Below, piece after piece: positions 1,561 to 60,906 of a stretch of 64,000 bases of DNA. Both the position numbers and the translations under genes were made by a program. The stretch is from Eledone cirrhosa (taxonomy: Eukaryota): positions 196,478,001 to 196,542,000 of the forward strand of contig OZ024742.1 in the NCBI GenBank assembly GCA_964016885.1, in the 5' to 3' direction. The notes beneath the pieces were generated by a model that made no database searches, was not told the DNA's origin, and saw nothing but the letters and a program-made list of their open reading frames with translations. Within the stretch, counting starts at the first letter, position 1, and each line of letters starts with the position of its first letter.

Positions 1561-2669
1561 TAATGATAACATTCCTTGCTACCCACTTTGGTTTGATTTT
1601 CTGTTCAAGTTTTGGCTTCTCTCTTCTGAGAATGATAAAATTCTTCTCTTCGGAGCTTCTTGTTGCAAAAGATCGGAAAAGTAGAGAGAAAACTGAGTTA
1701 ATTGTCTCTTTTGCCATCATGTGGGTGAATGAAAATGTGAAAAATGTAACTGAATTATAATTTTTCTTAATGTATTGAAGCTTTATTCTAACAAAAAATT
1801 TAGATACTAATTTACTTTTTACATTACTTTTTAAAAAATAATTTTGAATATTTAAAATAAAGTTTTAAAGTATTGGATTGGATAAATGGATGTAAACTTT
1901 ACCTTTTTAATCACAAAAAATAAACATTGCTGGTTGCTTCTTTCACTCCAAGTGTAAACTGGTCAAGAAGAGAATTCTGGGTAGAGATCACATGACTGAA
2001 TCCAGGTCTTAAAAGTAGTAAAAAAAGAAATTTTTGATGTGACATTAGGGTCACTAAACGTTCCGTATATACTCTTCAGTACTAAATAATCATACAAAAT
2101 AAACCAGAATCAGCAATAAAACAAACTTAGAAATTAACTAAATCTGTTTGAAAGCTTCAAGTCCTTTGGATATGCAAGTCTTTGATCTCAGTTGCATGGG
2201 GCAATAAAAATATCAGTACTTCAGGAGAAAATATGTTGAGAGTGTGCCTACTGGCTTAAAAGGATTGGAAGGCAAGCAGCAACAATTCTGCTTTTCCTTT
2301 CTCTCTTTTACCTCTCACACTTTTCACCTCTCTCTTTTTCCTGCTCCCTTTTCAATAAGAACAAAACTAATAGAATAGGAAAGAAACTAACACCACTGCA
2401 TTTTCTTACCATGACTGGAAGGTAACGAGGAAAAATTCAACTTTTCTCTGTCTTTCCCTCTTTGACATCCCTTTGGCTTCTTTGTTTTTTTTTTCTTTCA
2501 TGGTCTTTGCTCAAAGGGAATAGAAAAGGAAAGCAATTAATTCACTACTTTTCCTTTTTTTCTTGCTAAGCAAACAGGAGATTTCTTAGTTACACTTCTT
2601 AAATGATATCACTTGTTTATAATTTATCCTAAGAAATGAAGAAAATACGAAAAAAAAAATCACAAATAC

Positions 2670-3035
2670 AATGAAGGGTCATTGGAGTAATGTTACTTGA
2701 TAGAGTGCGTAACTCGGAGATCATAGAGTCATTCCAGGTACAACCACTACTTTTCTGAATTGAGAGATCACAGCTCTGATACTGTGGGCATGTCATTAGA
2801 ATGTTTCAAAAAAGAATCGCTGGACAGATTTTACAGGCAAAACCAACAGGTAGGAGACCCAGGGGTAGACCCGGAGCAAGATGGTTGGATAACATCCATG
2901 AGCTTGGTTGGTTTCACTTGGGATCCAGCCGGATCAGTTGGAGATGGTTGCTTCTGAGAGGACTTGCTGGAAGGAGTGTTTGAGGACTCTTCCCCCACGA
3001 CCTTCTCAGGAATAAGTGGGTGAAGAAGAAGAAGT
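2670..3035 (+). mobile_element. RTE LINE 3' fragment (third RTE family)
   Basis: Encodes QILQAKPTGRRPRGRPGARWLDNI, an RTE C-terminal motif, and ends in (GAA)n. A related fragment lies at 36680-36880. Confidence 0.65.
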
Positions 3036-3639: not shown

Positions 3640-4080
3640 GTAACAGGGGGACATATTGTCTGTATGCTTCAGCTTCAGCTTGTTCCTGTGGAGGGTCAGG
3701 TCTTCTGTATTACTGCGTGATGCCAGAGGTCACGGTCGTGTGTCATTGCCCTTGAGAGGTGCAATTGGGTAAGGTTGGCTTTTATCACCTCATCCCAAAT
3801 CTTCTTGGGTCTCCCCCACTCCACGGCTTCCATCGACTTCTAGTGCTCTGCACCTTTTTATGCAGCTGTCATCCTTCATACACATCACATGTCCATACCA
3901 GCGTAACCTCCTATCCTGCACACATCATTTGATTCTTCTTATGCTCAGTCTCTCTCTCAATTTGTTTATACTTTGCCATTTGCATATATTACTATTACAC
4001 ATCCATCGGAGAATGCAAGCTTTGTTTCTTTCTAATCTACACAAGTCTTCTACAGACAGCGCCCAGGTTTCACTTCCATG
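3640..4080 (-). mobile_element. Older RTE 3' fragment, left part (split by the 4078-7249 insertion)
   Basis: Reverse complement of the RTE C-terminus from HGSETWA onward; roughly 85-90% identical to 6545-6960. Confidence 0.9.
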
Positions 4081-6948
4081 GGAAATGACGATGGGATGGG
4101 TGGTGTAGGTATACTATTAGCTGACAAGTGGGTAGATAAAGTAATCTCAGTGTACAGGGTAAATGCAAGAATCATTAAACTCAGACTAGTCCTGAATAAG
4201 ACAATTACCACAATAATATCAGCTTACGCACCCCAATCGGGGCTGCCAGACGAACTTAAGGATAGGTTTTACGAGTCCCTAATACACACTACTGCTCTAA
4301 CAGACGACAAGGACTTCCTAATCATTGCAGGAGATTTTAACGGACACGTAGGTAAACACTGCGACGGCTTCAATAGAGTACATGGAGGCCATGGAGTTGG
4401 CACAAGGAATGAGGAAGGATTCAGACTTCTAGAATTCTGCGACGCCAATGACATGTCGATATGTAACACAAACTTTAAAAAACCCGACAACCACCTGATC
4501 ACCTATAGATCAGGGGAGCACTCTAGTCAGTTAGATTTTATCCTCATCAGAGGACGTGACAGATGGACGGTCGTAAACACAAAAGCCTTCCCTAGTGAGG
4601 AATGTACATCCCAACATAGCTTAGTTGTCAGCGACCTCACGGTCAGAACTAGACGAGCCCTGAAACAGAGGCCAACCTGGAGAAGAAAGATCTGGAAGCT
4701 GAAAGTCCCCTCAACCAGTAACAGATTTAAAGATATTTTACTCAACGCCTACGACAGTAAAGAAGAACAGATAGAGACATTTAACGTAGAAGAGAACTGG
4801 GAGTTCCTAAAAAATAACTTACTAGAGGCGACGGATGAGGTTTGTGGCTGGAGTAAGACCTCAAGCAGGAGGAGAGTGACTTGGTGGTGGAACAATAAGG
4901 TAGATGAAGCAGTCAAGGCCAAGAGACAGGCATGGAAAGAATGGAAGAACGGGGGGAGCAGGGTACATTACATAGAGACCAAGAGGGAAGCTAGGCGACA
5001 AGTATACTTAGCTAGGAGGGAAGCAGAGGATAGAAAATTCAAGCATGTTTTACAACGTGAGGACCAGAAACAGGAGGTATTCAAGATTGCGAGGCAGTGT
5101 GTCAGAGATAGTTGTGATGTCATTGGAGAGAAGTGTATCCGGAATGATAAAGGTGAGCTTGCCCTCACAAGTGCTGAGAAGAAAGATGCATGGAAGAGTC
5201 ATTATGATAGATTACTAAATGAGGAGAATGCATGGGAAGAAGAGACCCTACCCCACGTAGACCCTATAGAGGGACCAGCAGTACAAGTCAGCGGCAGCGT
5301 AGTAAGTAAGGCAATCAGAGATATGAAGATAGGGAAGGCAACCGGTCCATCGGGTATAGCTGCCGAGATGCTGAAGGCATCTGGGTCTGTAGGTCACACT
5401 ATAACCACACGTATCGTTAACCAGGTAATACTAGAGGGGGCCATACCAAAAGATTGGTGCAGTAGCATCATTGTCAACTGCTACAAAGGTAAAGGCGATG
5501 CACTAGATAGAGGAAACTATAGAGGTATAAAGTTGATGGACCAGGTCATGAAAGTAACAGAAAGAGTTATAGCACAGTTGATTAGGGACCGGGTGAATAT
5601 AGACGAGATGCAATTTGGGTTTGTTCCAGGGAAAGGCACCACTGATGCGCTCTTCCTTGTGAGGCAATTACAGGAAAAGTACCTAGCTAAAAGTAAGCCA
5701 CTCTACTTGGCATTTGTCGACCTTGAGAAAGCCTTTGACAGAGTTCCACGTGCAGTAATCTGGTGGGCTCTTAGAAAACTAGGAGTAGATGAATGGCTTG
5801 TGAAAGCGGTACAAGCCATGTATAGGGGAGCAGTCAGCAAAGTTAGGATTGGCAATGAGTATAGCGAGGAATTTAGCGTACAGGTTGGGGTCCACCAGGG
5901 CTCTGTTCTTAGCCCTCTCCTGTTCATCATAGTCCTGCAGGCAATAACGGAGGAGTTTAAGACCGGATGCCCATGGGAACTCCTGTATGCTGATGACCTC
6001 GCACTCATAGCTGAATCTATGGTAGAACTAGAGAATAAATTCCAAACCTGGAAGCAGGGACTAGAGAGAAAGGGCCTCAAAGTCAACATGACAAAGACTA
6101 AGGTCCTTATAAGTAGACGAGAAAACAGAACCCAGATCCCCTCAGGGAAATGGCCTTGCTCAGTATGTAGGAAAGGTGTAGGTAGGAACTCCATTCTCTG
6201 CCCCAAATGCAAACAATGGGTACACAAGAGATGTAGCGGGATCTCAGGAAGCTTAATTAAGAATGTAGGATTCACATGCAGCAGCTGTGCTGAAACAGCA
6301 AGCAAACAGCCACAGGAAACAAGTACCACCAATCTCTGGGAGGGCCCTGTAGAAACAGTAGACAGCTTCTGCTACCTAGGTGACCGAATTAGCAACGGAG
6401 GTGGGTGCTCAGAAAGTACAATAACTAGGGTAAGAACGGGATGGAAGAAGTTTAGGGAACTACTACCACTGCTAGCTGCAAAAGGCTTCTCCCTCAGAAT
6501 GAAAGGCAGACTGTATGATGCGTGTATCCGAACAGCGATGTTGCATGGTAGTGAGACCTGGGCGCTGAAGGTGGAAGACTTACGTAGATTAGAGAGAAAC
6601 GAAGCCTGCATGCTCCGATGGATGTGTAACAGTAATATACGTGAACGACAAAGCACAAATGAATTGAGAGAGAGACTGAGCATAAGAGGAATCAAATGCT
6701 GCATGCAGGAGAGGCGGTTACGCTGGTATGGACATGTGATGCGTATGAAGGATGACAGCTGCATAAAAAGGTGCAGAGCACTAGAAGTTGATGGAAACCG
6801 CGGAGTGGGGAGACCCAAGATGACTTGGGATGAGGTGATAAAAGCCGACCTTACCCAACTACACCTCTCAAAGTCAATGACACACGACCGTGACTTCTGG
6901 CGTCACGCAGTAATACAGGGTACCCGACCTCCCATGGGTACATGCTGA
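4078..6948 (+). CDS. RTE polyprotein: AP endonuclease + reverse transcriptase + PHD-like zinc finger (956 aa, N-terminus of APE missing)
   Basis: APE motifs SAYAPQ, GDFNGH, LDFIL, SQH; RT motifs NYRGIKL, QFGF, FVDLEKAFD, GVHQGSVLSPLLF, YADD, FCYLG; RTE C-terminus RRLRWYGHV and GRPKMTW. Confidence 0.95.
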   Translation: MGNDDGMGGVGILLADKWVDKVISVYRVNARIIKLRLVLNKTITTIISAYAPQSGLPDELKDRFYESLIHTTALTDDKDFLIIAGDFNGHVGKHCDGFNRVHGGHGVGTRNEEGFRLLEFCDANDMSICNTNFKKPDNHLITYRSGEHSSQLDFILIRGRDRWTVVNTKAFPSEECTSQHSLVVSDLTVRTRRALKQRPTWRRKIWKLKVPSTSNRFKDILLNAYDSKEEQIETFNVEENWEFLKNNLLEATDEVCGWSKTSSRRRVTWWWNNKVDEAVKAKRQAWKEWKNGGSRVHYIETKREARRQVYLARREAEDRKFKHVLQREDQKQEVFKIARQCVRDSCDVIGEKCIRNDKGELALTSAEKKDAWKSHYDRLLNEENAWEEETLPHVDPIEGPAVQVSGSVVSKAIRDMKIGKATGPSGIAAEMLKASGSVGHTITTRIVNQVILEGAIPKDWCSSIIVNCYKGKGDALDRGNYRGIKLMDQVMKVTERVIAQLIRDRVNIDEMQFGFVPGKGTTDALFLVRQLQEKYLAKSKPLYLAFVDLEKAFDRVPRAVIWWALRKLGVDEWLVKAVQAMYRGAVSKVRIGNEYSEEFSVQVGVHQGSVLSPLLFIIVLQAITEEFKTGCPWELLYADDLALIAESMVELENKFQTWKQGLERKGLKVNMTKTKVLISRRENRTQIPSGKWPCSVCRKGVGRNSILCPKCKQWVHKRCSGISGSLIKNVGFTCSSCAETASKQPQETSTTNLWEGPVETVDSFCYLGDRISNGGGCSESTITRVRTGWKKFRELLPLLAAKGFSLRMKGRLYDACIRTAMLHGSETWALKVEDLRRLERNEACMLRWMCNSNIRERQSTNELRERLSIRGIKCCMQERRLRWYGHVMRMKDDSCIKRCRALEVDGNRGVGRPKMTWDEVIKADLTQLHLSKSMTHDRDFWRHAVIQGTRPPMGTC

Positions 6949-19732: not shown

Positions 19733-19798
19733 TATTTCATTATACATATTTCAGGGATACCATATTAAAAATATGGCATGCCTTCGTCAGATAAAATA
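19733..19798 (-). ncRNA. Type I hammerhead ribozyme (intact core)
   Basis: UAUUUUAU-CUGACGA-AGG c AUGCCAUAUU uuu AAUAUGGUAU c CCU-GAAA-U augu A-UA/AUGAAAUA. Confidence 0.8.
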
Positions 19799-33592: not shown

Positions 33593-33651
33593 GCTGCAAT
33601 ATATATTTCGGTGATAACCATTATTCAACAGCTATGACCTCATCAGGCAGC
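33593..33651 (-). ncRNA. Type I hammerhead ribozyme (left arm of the 33553-35045 inverted pair)
   Basis: GCUGC-CUGAUGA-GGU c AUAGCUGUU gaau AAUGGUUAU c ACC-GAAA-U auau A-UU/GCAGC. Confidence 0.85.
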
Positions 33652-34947: not shown

Positions 34948-35006
34948 GCTGCCTGATGAGGTCATAGTTGTTGAATAATGGTTATCACTGAAATATATAT
35001 TGCAGC
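34948..35006 (+). ncRNA. Type I hammerhead ribozyme (right arm)
   Basis: Same fold as 33593-33651, with a G-U pair at the base of stem II. Confidence 0.75.
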
Positions 35007-37005: not shown

Positions 37006-38119
37006 TCTTTCCAATATAAAGCGGGAAACTAATAAGACTTTTTGTACCTCTGTTTGTTGTCTCTTTGAACTATATATATATATATATATAACAAAAGATT
37101 AATATGGTTCATTGATTACTCAATGAATATAGTTTTACAATAGATTAAAAGTCCTCTACAGAAAAAAAGTTTGTTTTTTTTTCTTGCATCTCCTCATATT
37201 CACCCCCTCCTTATATCCCTACTCGCTCCACGTCCTCTTCTTCTTTAAATTTAAGTTTATAATGTTATTATTTGTGGTATATAAAGGTTGAGATTTGTTG
37301 TAATAAATCACTGTCAATACTGGAATTGAACTATCAAGACCGTTGATGTATGTCATACATCAATTCATGTATTTTATCTGACGAGGATATACTTAAAAAA
37401 AACAATACAGTACCTTCGAAATATATATAATAAAACATATATTTTGATTATGTGAATGTCTTCATTTATTAATATTCTGAATAAGAAATATGAATATATG
37501 TGTGTGTGTGAAAGTAGATAAGGTTTTGTTTATATATACCAGGAATGAATACTTAAACAAGAAAGCTGCTTACCAGAGAGTTTGGCTCGATGGAATCCTT
37601 TGAATTGTATAGCATAAGTATCCAAGCAGAAGAGATCACGGAGTATATTACTACAAGCAAGTATTAATTATTTATTACACTTCATCAGAAAGCCGATAAT
37701 AGTGGAAGTCAACTATTCACTACACTAACTTGGTCTATGTAGACCTATTCAACCCTTGCTAGCAGGGAAAGCAGACATTAAATGATTATGATGATGATAG
37801 ATCACTGCCTTTTAAAACAAGATCATCTTACACAACAATGCCAGCATCAACAGTTTTCCAAGAGATGGCGATGTGAATAGAATAGACCAAATTTTTCTCT
37901 AGAAAATGTTTTTTAAATTTCTGCCACTGCCCAATTTTCTCTATCTGTCTATTTCTTCTTTAATTTTTCATTCTATTTTCTGATGAAGGACTAGCGTCCA
38001 AAACGTTAAGTCTCTTTTCCTACTATATCAAGCGTAAAACTAACAATATATTTCTTCATTGTACTGTTTTCATTGTACTGTCTCATTTGGTTAGTTATTT
38101 TTGTTTGCCTTTTGCATAT
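37006..38119 (+). repeat. Copy A of a local inverted duplication (partner 45099-45872)
   Basis: Colinear reverse-complement match with few substitutions; copy A has about 400 extra bp. Confidence 0.9.
37372..37435 (+). ncRNA. Type I hammerhead ribozyme inside the 37091-37494 insert
   Basis: UUUUAU-CUGACGA-GGA...UUC-GAAA-U auau A-UA/AUAAAA. Confidence 0.7.
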
Positions 38120-40167: not shown

Positions 40168-43100
40168 AAGTCAGTCAACGCGATCAGTCGCACATTTTGG
40201 CGTCAGAGACAATTCATTAAATTTAAGATGAATACTATCTCCGAGAGTAATGCCACAACTACCAGTCATGTTGAATAACTGGTTATTCTTCTAACTATAT
40301 CCACGGAAGATACCTTTTATTCGAATTCGTAGAGATATACGACTAAATACATAGTTCATTTTACAAGGATTTGCTACAAACAGCATGGCTGACCACAACA
40401 TCAACAACAACATCAGTGGAATACCGAAGAAAAACGAGAAAGGTAAACAAAATTTATTCAGTTGTAGCTACAGAAGAAACCAAAATTATAAATCGCATTT
40501 CTCTTGGAGTTGTGAACTTAATGATGATTTGTTTAATTGTTATAGAATGGCAAAAAACAATCCCTCCATTGGCTATATGAACAGAATGAAGCTACACTGG
40601 GACGAAATGCACCCAGAGCTAAATCACTTCACAGCGAAACAATTATGCCAACAAGCGACGTTTGTTGAACGTAAAAATAAGATAAATATTATTAATTGTA
40701 AGTCCCCCAGAACAAACATGGAATCAACAACACGTGCTACAGGTCGCCATGCTACTAGACTTCCTAGCAGCCAGGTCGAACAGTGCCTCGAAACAACTAT
40801 GCCTGTAAGAAATTTGACACCACGTGTACCATCTAAGTCTACCTCGAATGCTGGGGAAAACACTATCGATAATAATAATAATCGAAGAAATTTGACACCA
40901 CGTGTACCATCCGAGTCTACCTCGACTATTGTGGAAAATTCTATCGATAATGATAATCAAAAGTATAAACAATTGAAAATTTCCCTCAACGAAATCTTCC
41001 AGAGAGAAATTAATTCATGTATAAATATCTCTCTGGCTGAACGTATTAAAACAACAATATTTTATAATAAAAAAAACAAATAATTGTTTCTACTTTTGGC
41101 ACAAGGCCAGCCATTACCTAGTACATTACTGGTACTTTATTTTATCGACCCCGTAAGGATGAAAGGCAAAGTGAACCTCGGCGGGATTTGAACTCAGACC
41201 GTAAAGGGACGTAACTATGCTGGAAAGCAGGACGTCCGACTCTCTACTGATACTGCCAATCCACAATGAAATATTACGTGTTATTGAAGAAATAGGGGAT
41301 GAATATTTACGACGGATAAAAACCCCAACATTTTGGCAAATCAACGCCTGTTTATATGCCTTAGTAACGACAGTGAAGCATTATCTTGGTGATAGCAGAG
41401 ATATTAACAAGAACAAAACACCACCAAAAATGCCATCATATATAACTAAAATAGAAAAAAAGATTGCTGACCTACGAAAAACCATAGGATATGTGACAAT
41501 GCTCCTTACATGCAAACAAATACAAAAAAACTTCACTCCTCACCAACAAAGAGTGACAAATAAAATAGAGACGATGTTTGGTGACAGTAGAACCAGAACT
41601 CTTCAATATAAGCTGATCACCCTCAAACAAGAATTGAGAGCTGTTAGCGAAAAACGCCGATACCCGAAGAAGGTAGATGAAAGAAAAGTGCTTAATAAAA
41701 GATTCAGAGAAAACCAAACATCAGTCTATAGAGATATGAAGGGCAAAATAATAAGTGACACTGAGGCCCCATCCCAGAAAGATATAGATTCCTTTTGGAG
41801 AAAAATATGGGATGATAGGAAGAATTTCAACCAAGATGCAGTGTGGCTAAAAGAAATCCAAAAGAACTATTTCTCCTACACTACAACAAAAACATACGAA
41901 ATAAGTGAGACTGTGATAGGAAAACTCCAAGATAAGAAAACACCAGGAAGAGACCTGATTGTCGGCTACTGGTACAAAAAAATGATATTCTATCGGAGAT
42001 ATCTTACCAACCTCTACCAACAAGTTCTTAAGGGAGATACGCTTATACCAGAATGGTTGACATTAGCACAAACATTACTGGTCCCCAAGAACAAAGACAC
42101 CCACTTGGCAAAAAACTACCGCCCCATTGCATGCCAGAACCTGATGTATCAGATGTATACAGCCTGCCTGAACCTATTCCTCCAAGATCAGTGTGAAAAT
42201 AATGACATCATCACAGATGAACAAGCAGCTGGAAAGAAAGGGGTTTGGGGATGTGCTGAACAACTCTTAATCAACAAAACTGCGATGTTGGAGATGCGAC
42301 AACTTAGGGGGAATATCGTTACAGTCTGGCTGGACTACAGGAAAGCTTTCGATTCTGTTCCCCACTCTTGGATGATAAAGGCCCTCCGACTTGCTAAAGT
42401 CCCAGACATTATTATCAGAGCCATAGAGAAGCTGTCTTCTTCTTGGGCTATTATCCTAAAGTTAAAGACAGAGAAGGAAACTCTATTTTCATTGGTAAAA
42501 TAAAATATTACAGGCGTATATTTCAGAGAGACAGTCTCTCTGTTATATTATTCATCTTGTCATTAATACCCCCTTGTCCTTTCTGCTCAAGAAATGTGAA
42601 GGATACATCATTGTCTCACAGGAGAATAGAAATACGAACCTAATCCATAATTTCTTTGTGGATGATCTGAAACTCTATGCCAAGAACATGGATGGGATGA
42701 AGAAAATTCTTGACCTGGTTACAACATTCTCAAAGGATATAAGAATGGAGTTTGGCCAAGATAAATGCTCATATATGACTGTAAAGCGGGAAAAAACAAC
42801 AACCCAATCTAGCAAAATTTGTATCAATGGCCTAACTGTTTCACCAATATCTGATGAGGACTGCTACAGATACCTGGGGATAGATGAGAATATATCCTAT
42901 AATGGTATTTGTAATAAGGAATGCGTAACCAGGGAATACTACACCCGATTAAGAAAGATTTGGTCATCGGAACTGTCTGCGCAAAACAAAATAGTGGCTC
43001 ACAATGTGTTTTCTGTGCCTGTCCTAACACCAACTTTTGGAATACTCATTAGACGATAGACGAAATCCAAGCAATTGATGTTAGAACTCGAAAAATACTA

Positions 43101-44420
43101 AACAATACCGGAAACTTCCACATCAACAGTGACATAGACCGCCTTTACTTGAAACGTAAGCAGGGAGGCAGAGGCCTAATATCAGTCCAGACAGCATTTG
43201 AATGTCGCATCATATCTCTCCGACAACATCTACGAACCTCAAAGCGTAGGAGCCTGTTTCTCGAGCAAGTCTATCTGCATGAAACAGATAAGATCATGAG
43301 AGTTGGGAAGGAACTCCTCGAGAGATATTCCCTGTGTGATAATCAAAAACTCACACCCAAGTCGCTCGGCAGTATCGCAGTGAATCCATGGATGAAAAAC
43401 CGCATGCTTATCAGCAAAACATCATGCATGTATATTGCCAGGAAGCGCCAGAGTGAGAGTAATATAGATAAGGAAAGTAGTCTATCTTGGACCAACAACC
43501 ACTATATTGGCTCCCACTTTGAAGGATACGCTTTTGCAATCCAAGAACAGGAAATCAACACGATTCACAAAAGAGATAGGGCTGCAGGAAAATACCTAGA
43601 TGTGATAACAAGTGCAGACTCTGCAGAATTAACATCGAAGATGTCACCCATGTATTAAGCCGCTGTCCAAAGATGTCATCGCGGTACTATCTACATATGA
43701 GGCATGATATAGTGGCCAAAACACTGCACGATGCAATTCGTAAAAAAGAGAGCCCCGATAATAAACACATTAAAAGCTACTGCAATGTGGAAGACATACA
43801 TATGCATAATATGAAAGAGTACTGGTGGAATGTTAAAGTAAAAACGCCAATAAAATGCAGGCAGAACAGACCAGATATTATGATATGGGACAGGAAAAAG
43901 ATGGCACGCACAGTAATGGAAATTAGCTGCCCAGCAGATGCCAATATAATATCAAAGATTAGCGAAAAGGAGAATATTTATGCAGAACTTATGCTCCACC
44001 CTGATTATACCTTCAGATTTATGCCTGTGATTATTGAGGTACTGGGTTATGTTAGTAACTGCCTCAATACAAATCTTGAGAAGCTTCACAGGAACAGAAA
44101 GAACACAGCTAGCTAGGAAATTACAAGTACAACCCATTAATGGAACAGTAAAAATATGTAAAACGTGCTAAACATTTTGCATCTAATACTGTATATACAC
44201 ATGTACAGACACTAAGCCTATACACATGCACACATACAACTCAGAACATACACATCCACACATACAATAACATCCATATCTACACATGCAGACATGCATA
44301 AATATCTACCTAGTTGATGTTGTGTAAATTCCAACGAGAGAGTCTTGTGTCTATGTTAGAAACCGACTCTCTCCCTCTATTGGCAAACATTTGTGAAATT
44401 ATAAACCCAGAAGTACATAC
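40168..44420 (+). mobile_element. Near-full-length degenerate R4/Dong-clade non-LTR retrotransposon (RT + CCHC + restriction-like endonuclease)
   Basis: NYRPIAC, WLDYRKAFDSVPH, IFQRDSLS, FVDD, YRYLG, GGRGL, CRLC..H..C, RHD, RPD..E..K motifs; no APE; flanked by (CATA)n on both sides; many frameshifts. Confidence 0.88.
41083..41262 (-). mobile_element. SINE inserted in the R4-type ORF
   Basis: Reverse complement of the 61933-62117 family. Confidence 0.85.
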
Positions 44421-46916: not shown

Positions 46917-47683
46917 TAGGTACACGTACATACACATATGTATACAGACGTAAAGTAGTATGTATATATATATATGCATACATGCACACATATATATATA
47001 TGCACGTATGGATTCACCGAACATTTATTATAATGCTCGGTGTGTTTGTAAACAAACATCCCGTATTAAGCCGTAGTGTCTAGCAACCATCGTTGCTCGT
47101 TTGTTCAACACTGACAAAGGAACGCTGTACCAGTTTCAGGCTTATTAGCTATCGTCAGCAACGTATACCTTCCTGCCAGACTGTTGAACGTATATACTTA
47201 CCTTATGCATATTAACGGCTGAGTAGCCCAATTTGCATATCGAGTGGGTTAATCGGCCGGGTGCACCGATAACGATAAACGGAAAAAATGAAACGAAATT
47301 TCATTTCCCACTCTTAGTACGGCTGTTACTTAAAAATAAGTAGGTACACGTACATACACATATGTATACAGACGTACAGTAGTATGTATGTATATATATA
47401 TATATATATATACATACATGCACACATATATATATGCACGTATGGATTCACCGAACATTTATTATAATGCTCGGTGTGTTTGTAAACAAACATCCCGTAT
47501 TAAGCCGTAGTGTCTAGCAACCATCGTTGCTCATTTTACAGCGTTCCTTTGACAGTGTTGAATAAACGAGCAACGATGGTTGCTAGACACTACGGCTTAA
47601 TACGGTATGTTTGTTTACAAACACACCGAGCATTATAATAAATGTTCGGTGAATCCATACGTGCATATATATATGTGTGCATG

Positions 47684-47735
<52 letters not shown>

Positions 47736-47843
47736 CTACTGTACGTCTGTATACATATGTGTATGGACGTGTACCTACTTATATTTAAGTAACAGCCGTA
47801 CTAAGAGTGGGAAATGAAATTTCGTTTCATTTTTTCCGTTTAT
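46913..47843. mobile_element. HHR-delimited ~430-nt non-coding unit: partial tandem on the minus strand plus an inverted copy (palindrome P4)
   Basis: 47275-47532 is the reverse complement of 47568-47843; 46913-47092 directly repeats 47336-47532; HHR at 47122-47164. Confidence 0.85.
47122..47164 (-). ncRNA. Minimal type I hammerhead ribozyme (stem II slightly degenerate)
   Basis: ACGUUG-CUGACGA-uaGCU aaua AGCcu-GAAA-C ug G-UA/CAGCGU. Confidence 0.7.
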
Positions 47844-47847
47844 ATAT

Positions 47848-47971
<124 letters not shown>

Positions 47972-48312
47972 ATAAACGGAAAAAATGAAACGAAATTTCT
48001 TTTATATATATATATATATATATAAATTATGTCCATAGAATCATTTGATAAGATATATACACCATTTCCTCCCCCAATTAGCATAATCAACCACACAAAA
48101 ACCAATTAAACCAGGCTATAAGATTAAATGGCACCTATGAAGAAATAATAGATAAATAAACGACAGCCATCTATTCGCGATCAACAGCTATGGAATATTT
48201 ACCCAGCATTTCAATAGCACGTGGAAATCGATTAAATATATCGTCAACCATACACAATTAGGTATAAAATTAAAGTTAGAAGAAAAAATGCATATACACA
48301 TACCAGGATTAC

Positions 48313-48394
48313 GTTTCTACCCTTTAGGGTTTCGTTCGCTTTTTGAGATATCCTATCAAGGATAAATTCTCGAGCTTCGAACTCATCAGGAAAC
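48313..48394 (-). ncRNA. Canonical type I hammerhead ribozyme with stable stem III
   Basis: GUUUC-CUGAUGA-GUUCG...(extended hairpin)...CGAAC-GAAA-CCC uaaa GGG-UA/GAAAC. All core nucleotides are present and the three stems are perfect. Confidence 0.92.
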
Positions 48395-48673
48395 AAACTC
48401 ACTTGGACGAAGATTTTTCTTAAATGATCCCCGCCAGAAACGAATTCAAAATGGCTAAGAACTGTGACGTATATATATATATACGATGACAGAAGAGTTA
48501 AGTCACAAGTAACAGATACCACACAAGGTACATAGATATATATATATACACATATATTATTTTATGTATATATATATATATGCATGCATATTGGTTTCTG
48601 ATTTAGGCACAAGGCGAGCAATTTTGGGGATGGGGAAAGTCAATTAAATCAACCCTAGTGCATTACTGGTACT

Positions 48674-51344: not shown

Positions 51345-54300
51345 AATGGCTTCTCACTCTGTTCTGCCAACGTACACGGGCGACGTAAGGCTATGGTTCG
51401 CCCAACTCGAAGCATTTTTAGAGGCGAACAGAGTTGACGAGGCACTACAACGTCTTCTGGTGCAATTCCGCCGGCATTTCTCCCAGCTATTAAGGACCTG
51501 GTGTTAGAGACACCCACAGACTCGACGTACACATCTCTGAAGGCTGAAATACTCAGCCGGACAGAACAGTCTGCAGAAAAAAGGTTTAGAGCTTTGGTCC
51601 ATCTGGAGCATATAGGGGATGGCACCCCATCGAACCTCCTAAGGCGAATGAAGGACCTAACGGAGGAGTCGGTAGCGGAAACTGCCCTGCTGAAGCAGTT
51701 GTTCTTCTCGCGCCTGCCGACCAACGTACAGGCAATTTTGGCCCCTATGAGGGATACAAGTACGGTGGATCAGCTTGCCGCCTCTGCGGACAAAGTTTTC
51801 GAGGTGACGAGTGCCGGAGGCAGCGAACCCCTCGCCGCTGCTCACCACCCAGCTCGGGCCACACTCGGCCATGCCATCTACGCGGCAGCGCCAATAGACA
51901 GCTCAACCATTATGGCGATGCATTCAGGAACTCACCATAGAGCTCCACAAGATGAAGGCCTTGTGTGGTGCCCGTCCGCGCCCCCGCAGTCGCGGGAGAT
52001 CGCAAAGTTTTAGACGTCGTTCAAAATCACTAGCTTCATCTTTATGCTGGTACCACGAGCGATTTGCTGAGAGCGCGAACTACTGCGTGCAACCTTGCTC
52101 GTTTCATAAGGCGGGAAGCGCCTAAGAGGTCCGCTGATGGAGACAGTTGACCTCAACATAAAGCCACCAAACCGCCATTTCTTCATTAAGGACCTAATGT
52201 CGGGAAGAGGTTTCCTCGTGGATACAGGAGCCTCCTGTAGTACTTGGCCGGTCTATTGCCTGAAAGATACCCCCATAGAGTCATCTGTTACGCTGCAGGC
52301 AGTTAACAACTCATCTATAAAGACGTACGGGCAAATCTCGCTTCCTCTCAAATTCCTAAATCTTCGTAGGGATTTTAAGTTGATTTTTACGGTTGCCGAT
52401 TTTCCATACTCCATCTTAGGAACGAATTTCCTACACAACTTCTTTTTGTCTGTGGACGTCCGTGGCCAACGCCTGGTGGATAACATCACCGGTTTTTCAA
52501 TTCATGTCCAGGAAGCCAATGCTCCAATAGTCAGCCCCATATTCTTCATCACTGCCGCTGGAGACGCCTACCATTCGTTGCTGGGTTCTTTCCCGGAGCT
52601 CACGGATGGAAATTTTTGAGTCACTGAGCCAACACACTCGACCGCACATTTCGTTTCCACCACTGGTGCTCCAGTGTTTTCGTGTCCACGCCGCTTACCG
52701 GTGGAAAAATTAAAGGCAGCACGGTCCGAGTTCGACCATATGCTGCAGCTGGGCATTATTCGCCCATCTACGAGTCCTTGGGCTTCACCGTTACACATGG
52801 TGCCCAAGACTTCCGGCGACTGGAGACCCACTGGGCATTATAGGAGGTTAAATGCCATGACCGTCCCGGATAGGTATCCCATTCCCCATCTCCAGGATTT
52901 TGCATCTTCACTGCAGGGGTGTAAGATTTTTTTAAAGCTAGATTTAGTGCGAGCCTACCACCAACTTCCGGTCAGGAAGGAGGATATTCCGAAAACGGCG
53001 ATTACAACCTCTTTCGGATCCTTCGAATTTTTTACCATGCCTTTCGGACTCAGGAACGCTGCTAGCACTTTTCAGCAGTTCATAGACGAGGTCACTCGTA
53101 GTCTGGATTTCGTTTATGCTTACATAAACGATATTCTCGTCGCTAGTTCCTCTCCAGAAGAGTATATGCGCCACATGCATATCTTATTTCGGCGACTTCA
53201 GGATTACTGCGTTCGTGTGGATCCAGCAAAGTGTGTTTTCGGTTCCACTTCTCTAAATTTTTTAGGCCACCTCATCGACGCCGAAGGTATTAGGCCGCTC
53301 CCTCAGCGAGTTCAAGCCATACAGGAGTTACCTCCGCCTACTACACTTCACCAGTTGCGTTACTTCTTAGGCCTAATCAATTTCTATAGGCGTTTCGTTC
53401 CTCATTGTGCTAATTTGCTATCTTCCCTTACTGACATTTAAAAAAATCGTCGTAAGAAGAATGAGGATATTTCCTTGACACAAGGACAGCTTCAAGACTT
53501 CCAGACTGCCAAGACAGCACTCGCTAGTTCATCTTTGCTAGCCCACCGGGTACCAGAGGCCAAGCTTTCGCTTTGTGTTGATGCATCTGATACCGCTGTG
53601 GGAGCAGTTTTACAGCAGTCTTACGCTGAAAACCAACAACCTTTGGAATTGTTCTCGAGGAAGCTGAAACCAGCAGAAACGCGTTATAGCACGTTTAGGC
53701 GGGAATTATTAGCCATATATCTGTCAGTGAAACATTTCTCTCATATTCTTGAGGGGAGAAATTTTACAGTTTTTACCGACCACAAACCGTTGACCTTCGC
53801 TTTGAGGGATAAAGCCGACAGATATTCGTCCAGAGAGACAAGGCACCTGGACTACGTTTCACAATTTACAAACGATATCCAGCACATTGCTGGCTCGCAT
53901 AACATAGCTGCAGACGCATTGTCACGTTTGCCAATCAGCTCCATCTCGTCATCCCAGGAGATCGACTTAGGTCGTTTAGCTGCAGACCAACCTGCACTCC
54001 AATCGTTGGACACTCTTTCTGCTGAATTTGCGACTTGCATTTTCAAATATCTGCCCTTGTCCACCACCGATGTGATGTATCTACGGATTCACCACGACCA
54101 CTTGTTCCTGAGACTCACCGTCGAATTGTGTTTCTGGCTTTGCACAACATTTCTCACCCAGGATCTGCTGCCACAGTAAAGCTCATAACAGCCAGATTCT
54201 TCTGGCCAAATATGAGGCGCGACATTGCTGCTTGGTGCCGTTCCTGCATCGCTTGCCAGAAATCGAAAATCCATAGACACATCCGGACTCCACTTGGTAC

Positions 54301-55250
54301 TTTCAGTACTCCTGATGCTCGGTTTCAGCACATACACATTGACCTCGTTGGACATTGGCCATTCAGCAGTGGATATTAATACATATTGACCTGTGTCGAT
54401 CATTTTTCGCGATGGCCTGAAGCCATCCCCTTACAAGATATGACTGCTGAGACTGTAGCACGTGCCCTGGTATCAGGGTGGATTACCCGCTTTGGGGTAC
54501 CAACTACAGTCACCACAGACCGTGGTAGACAATTCGAGTCCCATCTCTTCTCTGAGCTCACAAAGATAATTGGAGCTCAACGGATTCGGACCACAGCCTA
54601 TCATCCTGCTTCAAACGGAATGGTGGAACGATTCCACCGCCAATTAAAGGCCGCTCTTCGCGTCTATCCAGACTCTCAACGTTGGAGCGAGTACCTTTCT
54701 ATTGTGTTGTTAGGAATTCGGTCATCAATAAAGGAGGATCTGGGGGTTCTCCCCGGCCGAATTACTTTACGGTGTTCCTCTAGCGTTGCCTGGGCAAATG
54801 CTTGCCCCTGTTGATCTTGCTTTCCAAGATCCGCTTTCCTACGTATTCCGCCTGGGTTCTTATTTTCAGGACCTGCCGCAGATGGATACGAGGAAACAAA
54901 CTGTAAAACCTGCGGTCCCGAGGGATATTGCCTCGTGGACCCATGTGTTCGTAAGGAACGATGCTGTGAGACCACCCCTCACACAACCATACTCTGGACC
55001 CTACTGTGTATTAGCACGTACTGACAAACATTTCACTGTAGACATTAAGGGGTCCAGAGAGACAATTTCGGTGGATTGACTAAAAAGAGCACACAATGAC
55101 GCTCATACACCCGAGCCACAAATATCCCAATCTTTCTCTCTTGTGCATACACCTGCTCCTTCTGCCCCACCTTCATCTACATACAAAACCACGATCCGTT
55201 CCGGTCGGAGATTCCACTGGCCCAAAATGTTCTGCCAAACTGTTTTCATG
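51345..55250 (+). pseudogene. gag-pol (disrupted)
   Basis: Gag ..LFFSRLPTNVQAIL; PR FLVDTGAS; [36 protein letters not shown]; RH VDASD..TDHKPL; IN HHCC, HIDLVG, TDRGRQF, NGMVER, and a GPY motif. Confidence 0.92.
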
Positions 55251-57316: not shown

Positions 57317-57849
57317 TAAACAAATAATGAATAAACAATTCCTTATATTAAACAAAAAAAGTTCATTATTTAACGATCGTTTCTAGGGTATATATGTGTT
57401 ATAATTGGTATGCATATTCAACAGATCTATGTACAAAATTATACAAAATTATACAAATTATCAAGATTAAATATACATACCTAACACATATATACGCCGT
57501 CTTCAGAAATAAATTATTTCTGAAGACGGCGTATATATGTGTTAGGTATGTATATTTAATCTTGATAATTTGTATAATTTTGTATAATTTTGTACATAGA
57601 TCTGTTGAATATGCATACCAATTATAACACATATATACCCTAGAAACGATCGTTAAATAATGAACTTTTTTTGTTTAATATAAGGAATTGTTTATTCATT
57701 ATTTGTTTAATATTTTATCTTGACTCTGTATACCGTTTATCTTTCACCGAAAGTGGATTTTCATTACATCTCTTCTTTCCATGATATCCGGAATACATTG
57801 AGTTCTTCATACGGATTGGACACTACCGTAAACTCTTGGTAGATTTATC

Positions 57850-57852
<3 letters not shown>
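57308..57852. repeat. Fold-back palindrome P3 (205-bp arms, 1-nt centre at 57513) plus about 130-nt extension
   Basis: 57308-57718 is self-complementary; the ORF track gives mirror ORFs; (TA)n lies on both sides. Confidence 0.95.
57513..57661 (+). ncRNA. Type I hammerhead ribozyme with ~115-nt stem-loop II (mirror at 57366-57512)
   Basis: AUUAUUU-CUGAAGA-c GGcGUAUAUAUGUGUUA...UAACACAUAUAUACcCU a-GAAA-C gauc G-UU/AAAUAAU. Confidence 0.75.
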
Positions 57853-57883
<31 letters not shown>

Positions 57884-57884
<1 letters not shown>

Positions 57885-60800
57885 TGGCTTAGAGCCACAG
57901 AGAGGGCCAGTGGATGATGGATCAGCTGTCTCTGAGACAAATATAAAGAGTGCAGTTTTGTCCTGCAGAAGAGCCATCAAAATGGGCACTTTGAATGTGA
58001 GGACTATTCGAACGCTGGAGAAGAGAGAGGAGTTGGGACATCTGTTCGAGGAGAGTGGTATACAGATACTTGCGATCCAAGAACACAGGATTCTACACGA
58101 TGAGCCCGTGAGGAGTGTGATGATCGGGAGGAAGAGCCAGCTCATCACTACATCGGCAGTGAAGAACACAACAAATGCTGCAGTAGGAGGAGTGGGTTTT
58201 GTGTTCAGTGCAAAAACCAATCTGTTGGTGAGGGAAATAATGCCTATCTCCCCGCGAGTGTTGAGGGGAACCTTCAATGGAAACCCAAGACTGACAGTCA
58301 TCTCAGCCTATAGTCCAACCGAGGGGGACAGTGATGTGAATGCGGAGGAGTTCCATGAGGAGGTGTGTAGAGCTGTCAACACCACTCAGGCACACAATAT
58401 CCTGCTTGTTTTGGGGGACTTCAATGCACATCTGAGTAAGGAGGGCAGTGAAGATCCTTGCTGGTACTTCCATAACAACACCAACCGAAATGGAAGACTA
58501 CTGAGAGACACCCTGCTGGAGGCGAACTTGATGGCGACCAACCTAAGGTTTAGGAAGAATCCGGGGAAGATGTGGACCTACATCTCAGATATGCACCTGT
58601 CCAAGTCCCAGATTGATTTCATTCTGGTGAGGAAAAAGTGGCGGAATAATGTTCTGAACACGGAACCATACAGCTATTTCAGTACACTGGGTAGTGACCA
58701 CCGGCTTGTTATGAGTGAGGTCCGCGTGAGCTTAAGAAAGAGCAAGGCTCAGCCCCGGAGAAATCTATGACTGGGGAGCTTTCAAGGAAGATGATAAGCT
58801 ACAGGAGAGGTTCACAGTGGAAGTGAGAAATAGTTTTAGTGCTCTGTGTGGAGAGTCAGAGGAGAGAGAGATTGGATGGACTGAGGAGAGTGTGACGAGG
58901 AGGTACGGGCACTTCACCAATGCAGTGGCAGTGGCGAAAGCAAGTGAAACCCTGGTGCCGAGGAAAAAGAACAAAGGGAAGCACGTCAGCTCTGCAAACC
59001 CAAAAGTGTGTGCAGCCAGAGAACACCTGAAAGCTGCCAGGGACCAATTCTATGCTGATCCTACGGAGGAGAGGATGGAGACTGTGGAGATGATGAGGGA
59101 AGAGCTCTGTACCGCTTACATTGAGGTCAGAGAGGAGGCACTGATAGAGAAGATCAGAAGTGTGGAGAGAGCGGTTGACAGATCTGGATGTAGGGAGAGC
59201 TGGATGATCATCAACGAGATCACAGGGAGGAAGAAAAGGTGTTCGAGTCAGATCCAGGGAACGGGGCCCGAGGATAGGAAGAGGAAATGGCTAGACCATT
59301 TTAGGACCCTACTAGGAGTGCCACCCTCCACAGCCCAGAGCACTGGGGAGATCAGGCGGCTGTTTGAGGAACTGGATGTTGAGACAGAGCCCTTCACCAG
59401 AGAGGAGCTTCAGAGAGCCAAGAAGAAGATCAAGGAGGGCAAGGCTCATGGAGAAGATGGAGTGGCATCAGAGATGATGAAGAGGTGTGATTTTGATGAT
59501 ATTATCCTGGGGTTCTGTAACGGGGCACTGGAGAAAGGAGTTGCCCCGAATCAGTGGAGGATCAGTAACATCGTCCCAGTGCCAAAGAAGGGAGATCTCT
59601 CTAACACCAACAACTACCGGGGGATCTCACTGACGTCACTTGTGGCAAAGACCCTCAACAGGATGATTCTTAACAGGATCCAGCCTGAGATGGAGAAGAA
59701 GCTCAGGGACAACCAGAACGGCTTCAGAGAGGGTAGATCAACCACCAGTCACATCCTGATGCTGAGGAGGATATTAGAGGGAGCTAGAGCAAAGTGCCTT
59801 CCTGCGGTCATGGTTTTCATTGACTTTAGGAAGGCCTTTGATTCTGTGGACCGTTACTGCCTGATGAAGATCTTACAGGCTTATGGAATCCCCAAGAGGA
59901 TAGTGGACCTGATATCACTGCTCTACACCAACACCAAAGCCCAAGTCATTACACCTGATGGGATGACAGAATTCTTTGAGATACTGGCTGGAGTGCTCCA
60001 GGGAGATACATTGGCTCCCTACCTTTTTATCATCGTAGTGGACTATTGTATGCGCCTTGCACTGGAGAAACACCAGGACTCTGGCTTTACTGTAGCACCG
60101 GCTCAGAGCAGAAGAGTTGGGGCGAAAAAGGTATCAGATGCTGAATTTGCCGACGACATAGTTTTGGTGACAAATACAGTGAAGGAGGCAGAGGATTTGA
60201 TGCGGGAGGTTGAGACTGTGTCGATGAGTGTGGGGCTGAGAATGAATGAGACTAAAACAAAATATCTGGTAGAGAATGTTGAGAAGCCAGAGGGGATCAC
60301 TAATGTAGGCGGGAAGCCGCTGGAATTGGTTGAGGACTTCCTGTATTTGGGAGCAAAGATTGGGAATACGGAAGATGATGTGGTTGAGAGGAAGAGCAAG
60401 GCCTGGGCGGCGTGTCACAGCTTGAGATCGGTGTGGAAGTCGGACCTTCGTAGAGACCTGAAAATCCGCCTCTTCATTGCTGTAGTGGAGTTTGTGCTGC
60501 TGTATGGGTCTGAGACTTGGACACTGACCAAGAGACTCACTCAGATGGTGGATGGGTGCTACACGAGAATGCTGAGGATGGCTCTGAACATTAATCAGTA
60601 TACACTGAGGATGAAAAACTCAGAGCTGTATGGGAGCATCCCAAAAGTCAGCTCAAAAGTGACACAGAGGAGACTGAGGTTGGCTGGACATGCTCACCGA
60701 CATCCAGAGTTGACATTGCACTCAGTGCTCCTTTGGGAGCCCCTACATGGACACACTAGAAGAGGAAGACCAAGGTTAACATATGTTGATGCCCTAAGGA

Positions 60801-60906
60801 CAGACACTGGTCTGTTGGAGATGCAGGATATGGCAGCGATAATGAGGGACAGAGACCGCTGGAGAGAACTCGTCCATGGATCTCGGGAATTTTACCCGCC
60901 TTAGAT
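57884..60906 (+). mobile_element. Second-family RTE-like LINE, nearly intact (one frameshift near 58765)
   Basis: APE GTLNVRT, IQEHR, GDFNAH, SDH (57910-58770); RT NYRGISL, FIDFRKAFD, GVLQGD, FADD, YLG and C-terminal RGRPR (58817-60904); (TA)n on both sides. Confidence 0.92.

What the first reader, a model, noticed from the sequence alone, without database searches (positions are those of the whole stretch)
48313..48394. Textbook-perfect hammerhead with stable stem III and an extended stem II
Seen: complete core, 5-bp stem I, a GUUCG/CGAAC stem II base extended by a further hairpin (UAUCCU/AGGAUA), and stem III CCC-uaaa-GGG with a GUA triplet. It lies in a unique ~440-bp TA-bounded island (about 48025-48470). 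Unlike the minimal PLE-type motifs elsewhere in the window, it should fold as a monomer (inference). It could also cut any host pre-mRNA transcribed on this strand.
Basis: partly seen in the sequence, partly recalled or inferred. Interest (0 to 1): 0.72.

Follow-up and report, generated by a model that had tools for sequence, protein, structure and literature searches.

The report
Retrozyme hammerhead whose cut marks genome
This is a real hammerhead self-cutting RNA motif inside one truncated copy of a small jumping repeat present in thousands of copies, and many copies begin right at the predicted cut, so the ribozyme likely did cut the RNA that was copied into the genome.

Summary
The type I hammerhead is real (minus strand, cut 48318/48317), but the island is not unique. 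It is a 5'-truncated copy of a ~685-nt non-coding repeat (roughly 2,300-3,000 insertions) that lands in (TA)n tracts with Penelope-type marks: two fixed 3' ends, partial tandems and back-to-back arms. That is an animal non-LTR retrozyme, a known class. Three additions. (1) 5' ends of copies pile up from the first base after the scissile bond: 17 of 84 arms, against 1 of 73 in the closest sister family, which has a minimal palindromic stem III. This supports monomeric cleavage of the template RNA in vivo. (2) The extended stem II likely supplies a pseudoknot with the strand 5' of stem I; one pair varies as U-G, C-G, U-A across four families. (3) Longer transcripts are predicted to misfold through an upstream strand (weak support), and no host exon was found, so cutting of host pre-mRNA is unsupported. 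No RNA data, cleavage assay or partner element. The scan noted two-armed retrozymes in this genome and cut-marked copies in another genome before.

The parts
48021..48470 (-). 5'-truncated copy (unit positions 234-684) of a ~685-nt non-coding retrozyme, family A
   Evidence: a natural 2.4-unit copy in L006 defines the unit
48312..48395 (-). type I hammerhead: stem I (6 bp with U.G), core, stem II, stem III
48317..48318 (-). predicted scissile bond GUA/G; unit 386/387, the left edge of the pile of copy 5' ends
48319..48330 (-). stem III ACCC-UAAA-GGGU, near-palindromic; sister families have ACCAUGGU, family A variants include ACCCUAGGGU and ACCCCAUGGGGU
48339..48377 (-). stem II extension: internal loop then GAGA/UCUC and UAUCCU/AGGAUA; a UCC/GGA hairpin is seen in all four families
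48396..48401 (-). likely pseudoknot strand UGAGUU, 5' of stem I
48371..48376 (-). likely pseudoknot partner AGCUCG in the stem II internal loop
48435..48442 (-). upstream strand CGUUUCUG predicted to pair across the cut site (48319-48312); candidate off-switch, weakly supported
48034..48313 (-). long rod-like hairpin 3' of the cut (z -5.1; -2.7 and -4.3 in families B and C)
48021..48030 (-). fixed 3' end, site S1 (unit 684/685), inferred start of reverse transcription
48004..48020 (.). (TA)n target tract at the 3' end
48471..48483 (.). (TA)n target tract at the 5' end

Best explanation
The motif is a type I hammerhead in a truncated copy of a non-coding ~685-nt repeat (an animal non-LTR retrozyme) that is likely copied into (TA)n tracts by a Penelope-like reverse transcriptase/endonuclease, and its ribozyme likely cuts the element RNA as a monomer. 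Shown: repeat structure, copy ends, covariation. Inferred cycle: a master copy of more than one unit is transcribed; the hammerhead, held by a pseudoknot between the strand 5' of stem I and the stem II internal loop, cuts at GUA/G; the enzyme nicks a TA tract and starts copying inside the RNA at S1 (unit 685) or, for a second arm, S2 (unit ~117). On cut linear RNA it runs off at the cut, giving the ~300-nt class and some ~985-nt copies. On RNA with an intact junction (a religated circle or an uncut multimer) it reads through the ribozyme, giving copies like this one and copies longer than a unit. The window copy lacks the first 233 nt and is probably a dead-end insertion.
For: Fixed 3' end followed by TA repeats in 72 of 73 and 51 of 54 copies that end at S1. 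Copies longer than one unit: 22 of 95 and 24 of 72. Two-armed loci: 15 of 25 end at S1 on one arm and S2 on the other, 1 S1/S1, 0 S2/S2, 9 with another end, as for the two initiation sites of anole Poseidon (PMC11167929). 5' ends in a sample chosen by a 3' pattern: 18 of 83 in the 25 nt after the cut, 1 in the 25 nt before, 6 in the next 50; best step at unit 387, the first base after the bond. Same method: A 17 of 84 arms, D 1 of 73 (Fisher p 2e-4), C 5 of 51. D shares stem II almost letter for letter but has ACCAUGGU as stem III, which argues against a mere stall at the structure. Pseudoknot: the pair after GAG is U.G in 84 of 86 A, C-G in 16 of 17 B, U-A in 40 of 40 C and 11 of 12 D sequences. 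Longest ATG frame in the unit 37 aa, GC 34%. RT plus GIY-YIG elements are abundant in the genome.
Against: No cleavage assay and no RNA data. No autonomous element sharing the unit as a terminal repeat among 40 GIY-YIG loci; the two hits (L215, L237) read as separate insertions of sister families. A versus C is not significant (p 0.15) although C has the minimal stem III, so the link between stem III and the pile rests on one contrast. Only 4 of the 17 ends lie at 387-388; the rest trail up to 24 nt downstream, often at TA microhomologies. In folds of whole units as circles the active fold is rare (stem I probability at most 0.37, mostly near 0), and even with 25 nt of leader only 25% of 84 family A copies have stem I probability above 0.5 (pseudoknot not modelled). 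In vitro, hammerhead cleavage was not needed for anole Poseidon insertion (PMC11167929), and 8 of 9 Xenopus retrozyme dimers did not cleave (bioRxiv 10.64898/2026.07.22.740005).
Confidence: 0.8

Rival explanations
1. The element is a retrozyme, but the pile of 5' ends comes from a transcription start or a reverse-transcriptase stall near unit 387-411, not from cleavage.
Against: The edge falls on the first base after the bond; sister D with near-identical stem II shows no pile; ends recur there in the second and third lap (L006, L044, L077, L158).
Confidence: 0.12
2. The template is always linear: multimeric transcripts in which only some hammerheads cut, or template jumps between cut monomers, give the long copies; no circle exists.
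For: Stops at the cut in later laps fit a linear 5' end; uncut RNA was the main substrate of anole Poseidon in vitro.
Against: Arms that cross two cut sites exist (5 of 84); many arms stop shortly after one full lap; coral, mussel and axolotl retrozymes form circles (PMC7229834). This rival concerns one step only and is compatible with the rest of the best explanation.
Confidence: 0.35
3. The unit is the terminal repeat (pLTR) of an autonomous Penelope-like element that was not sampled, and the island is an ordinary 5'-truncated PLE copy.
For: All insertion marks are PLE-like; Xenopus retrozymes resemble pLTRs.
Against: Units join head to tail with no coding sequence between them in every longer-than-unit copy mapped; none of 40 GIY-YIG loci carries the unit as its end.
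Confidence: 0.07
4. A single domesticated ribozyme that cuts a host pre-mRNA.
For: The window copy has an intact core and a well-paired stem II extension.
Against: Thousands of copies, nearest 97% identical; no host Pfam domain in 86 window ORFs (short exons would be missed); read-through RNA is predicted to misfold.
Confidence: 0.03

Closest known systems
Metazoan non-LTR retrozymes (Cervera and de la Pena 2020, PMC7229834: passages and sections 14, 17 read; Li, Clavereau, Pollet 2026, bioRxiv 10.64898/2026.07.22.740005: parts 1-3 of 5 read)
   Same: Type I hammerhead in a non-coding, low-GC unit; head-to-tail copies; co-occurrence with PLEs; proposed PLE mobilisation.
   Different: 685 nt against about 170-400 nt for the invertebrate examples (51-972 bp in the preprint); mostly dispersed truncated copies rather than arrays; long stem II with a likely pseudoknot; circles and cleavage not tested here.
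Poseidon PLE of Anolis (Frangieh et al. 2024, PMC11167929: parts 1-2 of 4 read)
   Same: AT-rich target, internal start of reverse transcription at two sites downstream of the hammerhead cut, optional tail.
   Different: Autonomous; tail 30-40 bp against about 117 here; the authors found no RNA-seq reads ending at the cut and cleavage dispensable in vitro, whereas here genomic copies begin at the cut.
Minimal and palindromic-helix III hammerheads of metazoan PLEs (Cervera and de la Pena 2014, PMC4209133: parts 1-2 of 4 read; Craig et al. 2021, PMC8557442: passages read)
   Same: Sister families B, C, D have a small palindromic helix III; (TA)n bias and inverted 5'-truncated arms.
   Different: Family A has a 4-bp helix III with a 3-4 nt loop that can close on its own while staying near-palindromic.
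Pseudoknotted hammerheads (Perreault et al. 2011, PMC3088659: passages read)
   Same: A base-paired contact between the stem I and stem II regions, predicted in about 40% of their set.
   Different: Here the stem II partner is an internal loop capped by a further hairpin; not tested by mutation.
R2 HDV-like ribozyme (PMC3774820: search listing and start of abstract only)
   Same: Ribozyme cut defines the 5' junction of inserted copies.
   Different: Different ribozyme and retroelement class.

Membership tests
Type I hammerhead ribozyme | Core CUGANGA, GAAA, UH in type I order | tested here: met
   core columns invariant in 15 sequences of four families
Type I hammerhead ribozyme | Three helices supported by covariation | tested here: met
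   5 of 14 pairs change on both sides (stems I and II); stem III varies on one side only
Type I hammerhead ribozyme | [quoted passage not shown] | tested here: inconclusive
   pseudoknot kept in four families with one three-way varying pair; three central pairs never covary; no structural test
Type I hammerhead ribozyme | Mg2+-dependent self-cleavage | not testable with these tools
   indirect only: step in copy 5' ends at the bond
Metazoan non-LTR retrozyme | Non-coding, low-GC unit with a type I hammerhead | tested here: met
   GC 34%, longest ATG frame 37 aa
Metazoan non-LTR retrozyme | Head-to-tail copies, some with two hammerheads | tested here: met
   L006 has 2.4 units; 22 of 95 and 24 of 72 copies exceed one unit; the window copy itself is under one unit
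Metazoan non-LTR retrozyme | Expression as monomeric circular RNA | not testable with these tools
   no RNA run listed
Metazoan non-LTR retrozyme | Homology to the pLTR of an autonomous PLE | tested here: inconclusive
   none among 40 GIY-YIG loci out of 150 scored and 10,595 candidates
PLE-mobilised element | Two fixed internal start sites, partial tandems, inverted arms, (TA)n target | tested here: met
Autonomous PLE | RT plus GIY-YIG frame | tested here: not met
   no frame in the unit; no PLE protein match in the window
Conserved single-copy intronic hammerheads (HH9-like) | Single copy, Rfam score above gathering | tested here: not met
   HH9 12.3 bits against 52

The most novel reading that the evidence does not exclude
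Four sister retrozyme families in one genome form a natural experiment in ribozyme tuning. Family A turned the dimer-only palindromic stem III into a self-closing one, cut its RNA often enough to leave about a fifth of its insertions starting at the scissile bond, and gained an upstream strand that switches the ribozyme off in circles and read-through RNA. The genome would then record in vivo hammerhead activity on the template of a Penelope-type enzyme, a step reported as unobserved.
Probability: 0.3. Interest if true: 0.68.

Novelty: new member of a known kind. Interest (0 to 1): 0.46.

Why it matters
[quoted passage not shown] Here copy ends give a count of how often the template had been cut, with a sister family as control, and name exact constructs (A versus D stem III, pseudoknot and upstream-strand mutants) to test. 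I did not find such a count for hammerhead retroelements in the listings of searches or in the passages read; supplements were not read and subscription papers are not covered. The class itself is known, and the single locus is an ordinary dead copy.

Tried and rejected
Rfam scan of the whole window gave no hammerhead among 150 listed matches, mostly microRNA-like hairpin noise. No RNA holder listed; four contig runs of unknown kind from one study were laid. In X4 one variant with a 2-nt shorter stem III loop makes up 180 of 233 depth across the cut, but the run type is unknown, so nothing is drawn from it. The first pile count (mid-unit pattern, 25 of 95 ends at 385-399) is cut off by the pattern at unit 394, so it was redone with a 3' pattern. 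The idea that the enzyme frees the hammerhead by unwinding the 3' rod was not supported: blocking the rod did not raise the active fold. The upstream off-switch is weak: 1.8 kcal/mol gap, 26 of 300 shuffles pair as well, one compensatory double change between A and D. The tree of units (14 of the family A units drawn at random, plus the others) has no outgroup, so the direction of the stem III change is not fixed. Junction fidelity at the cut could not be scored (48 sequences unparsed). MAFFT misregistered the pseudoknot strands, so pairs were counted at fixed offsets set by eye per family. Target-site duplications cannot be read in TA tracts. Search for the partner PLE among 40 loci failed.

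Full report
Observation. On the minus strand the window reads stem I, CUGAUGA, a long stem II, GAAA, CCC-UAAA-GGG, UA, then the 3' strand of stem I. The 82-nt motif folds into this three-way junction as its best structure (-21.1 kcal/mol, z -2.9). The predicted cut is 48318/48317. A descriptor scan finds four other type I motifs in the window, all with a palindromic UAUAUA or UAUGUA stem III. Rfam gives only a sub-threshold HH9 match.

The island is a repeat. A search of the own genome (3.0 Gb, animal; earlier scan notes call it cephalopod, not checked here) returned 4,257 candidates, and all 40 scored ones match at 95-100%. L006 holds 2.4 head-to-tail units and defines a 685-nt unit; the window copy is unit 234-684. 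Exact patterns occur 286, 421 and 325 times. Overlap between samples (17 of 95, 9 of 83, 9 of 83) gives a rough 2,300-3,000 insertions. The unit has 34% GC and no ATG frame over 37 aa. Of 145 distinct sequences spanning the motif, 93 keep the core and 46 pass all helix tests.

Insertion marks. The 3' end is fixed at unit 683-685 and followed by TA repeats in 72 of 73 and 51 of 54 such copies; 5' ends are variable; 22 of 95 and 24 of 72 copies exceed one unit. After a lead from earlier scan notes I tested back-to-back arms: of 25 two-armed loci, 15 end at unit ~685 on one arm and ~117 on the other, one has two ~685 ends, none has two ~117 ends, and 9 have another end. Partial tandems, inverted truncated arms and (TA)n bias are described for PLEs (PMC8557442), and two internal start sites for anole Poseidon (PMC11167929). 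RT plus GIY-YIG elements abound in this genome, but none of 40 loci examined carries the unit as its terminal repeat. The partner enzyme is therefore inferred by class only.

The cut is recorded in the copies. In the first 100 listed matches to a pattern near the 3' end (83 loci after merging six duplicate listings), 18 5' ends fall in the 25 nt after the bond, 1 in the 25 nt before and 6 in the next 50; the best step is at unit 387, the first base of the 3' product (p about 4e-5 for both comparisons). Four loci of the mid-pattern sample and one of the 3' sample start at exactly 387 in the first lap. Sister families were found (B 72%, C 66%, D 79% identical) and sampled the same way. Per arm: A 17 of 84, D 1 of 73, C 5 of 51; A versus D p 2e-4, A versus C p 0.15 (D from 70 stretches, C from 50, covering part of the listed matches). 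D has almost the same stem II but the minimal stem III ACCAUGGU. This fits more frequent, monomeric cleavage in A and argues against a stall at the structure. It is one contrast, C is intermediate, and most piled ends trail the bond by 6-24 nt.

Anatomy across families. Stems I and II covary. B, C and D have the palindrome ACCAUGGU; family A has CCCUAAGGG (21), CCCUAAAGGG (16), and the perfect palindromes CCCUAGGG (5) and CCCCAUGGGG (3) among its forms, so its stem III looks like a widened PLE palindrome that can still pair between two molecules (duplex -13.9 against hairpin -4.7 kcal/mol). The direction of change is not fixed by the tree. Two unpaired motifs are kept in all four families: GAG just 5' of stem I and CUC in the stem II internal loop. 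They are complementary, and the next pair is U.G in A (84 of 86), C-G in B (16 of 17) and U-A in C (40 of 40) and D (11 of 12); the pair on the other side fails in B (0 of 17). A pseudoknot between the stem I and II regions is a known way to speed hammerheads (PMC3088659). I put it at about 70%. It explains the extended stem II: the internal loop stands in for loop 2.

Context. With 15-33 nt of leader the window copy folds as a hammerhead (stem I probability about 0.9); with 57 nt or more, CGUUUCUG at 48442-48435 pairs across the cut and the probability falls to 0.01. The pairing is strongest in A (-12.0 kcal/mol), weaker in D (-9.1, three sequences) and about -3 in B and C, with one double change between A and D. 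The energy gap is only 1.8 kcal/mol, the pseudoknot is not modelled, and 26 of 300 shuffles pair as well, so this off-switch is a hypothesis (about 35%). It would explain how copies that read through an intact ribozyme arise, and PMC7229834 notes that metazoan retrozyme circles need some block. The part 3' of the cut is a long rod (z -5.1).

Host effect. The window is made of LINE, LTR-element and small-repeat pieces; 86 further frames gave only retroelement domains and one DUF7041 match in the LTR element. Short exons or a long intron cannot be excluded. No RNA run was listed.

Verdict. A new family group of animal non-LTR retrozymes. The ribozyme call is right, 'unique' is wrong, and the host-cutting idea is unsupported. 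What is worth keeping is the family-level record of cleavage with a sister control, and the pseudoknot. Related notes exist in this scan for other families. Supplements of the cited papers were not read and may list similar elements.

Noticed in passing
window 33593-33651 (-) and 34948-35006 (+): Two related type I hammerheads (106 nt at 92% identity) with palindromic UAUAUA stem III, back to back 1.3 kb apart; may be one two-armed insertion of another family. No PLE protein match in the window.
   Followed up: partly
window 37372-37435 (+) and 19733-19798 (-): Two more type I motifs with CUGACGA core, long stem II loop and palindromic stem III; a similar motif lies in L243.
   Followed up: no
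window 47400-47740: A ~250-nt near-perfect inverted repeat between TA tracts, next to the insertion; a short inverted-repeat element flanks the tract at 47815-48003.
   Followed up: no
L006:1900-1990 (-), L237, L264; 3' regions of PLEs in L227, L230, L233, L239: CCAAT-like and TTTGGCGCG-like words lie 40-110 nt upstream of the hammerhead in the retrozyme families and, by eye, in the 3' regions of several PLEs: a possible internal promoter (motif names recalled). The window copy has lost the CCAAT word.
   Followed up: no
L227, L228, L229 (G000 C1, C5): Long open RT plus GIY-YIG frames (938, 844, 1096 aa stop to stop) of several PLE families, candidates for the mobilising enzyme.
   Followed up: partly
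window 4036-6948 (+), 57832-60904 (+), 40355-44116 (+), 51438-54814 (+): An unbroken 970-aa endonuclease-RT LINE frame, a second LINE, a fragmented RT element and a fragmented LTR retrotransposon (RT, RNase H, integrase).
   Followed up: no
L264, L248, L296, L014: Position 10.1-11.1 of stem II is not always G-C: A.C in family B (with core CUGAAGA), U-A in C, U.U in a family A subgroup.
   Followed up: no
families A, C, D: Many arms stop 20-60 nt beyond one full unit or 40-60 nt from the start site, at the entry to the 3' rod; unexplained.
   Followed up: partly
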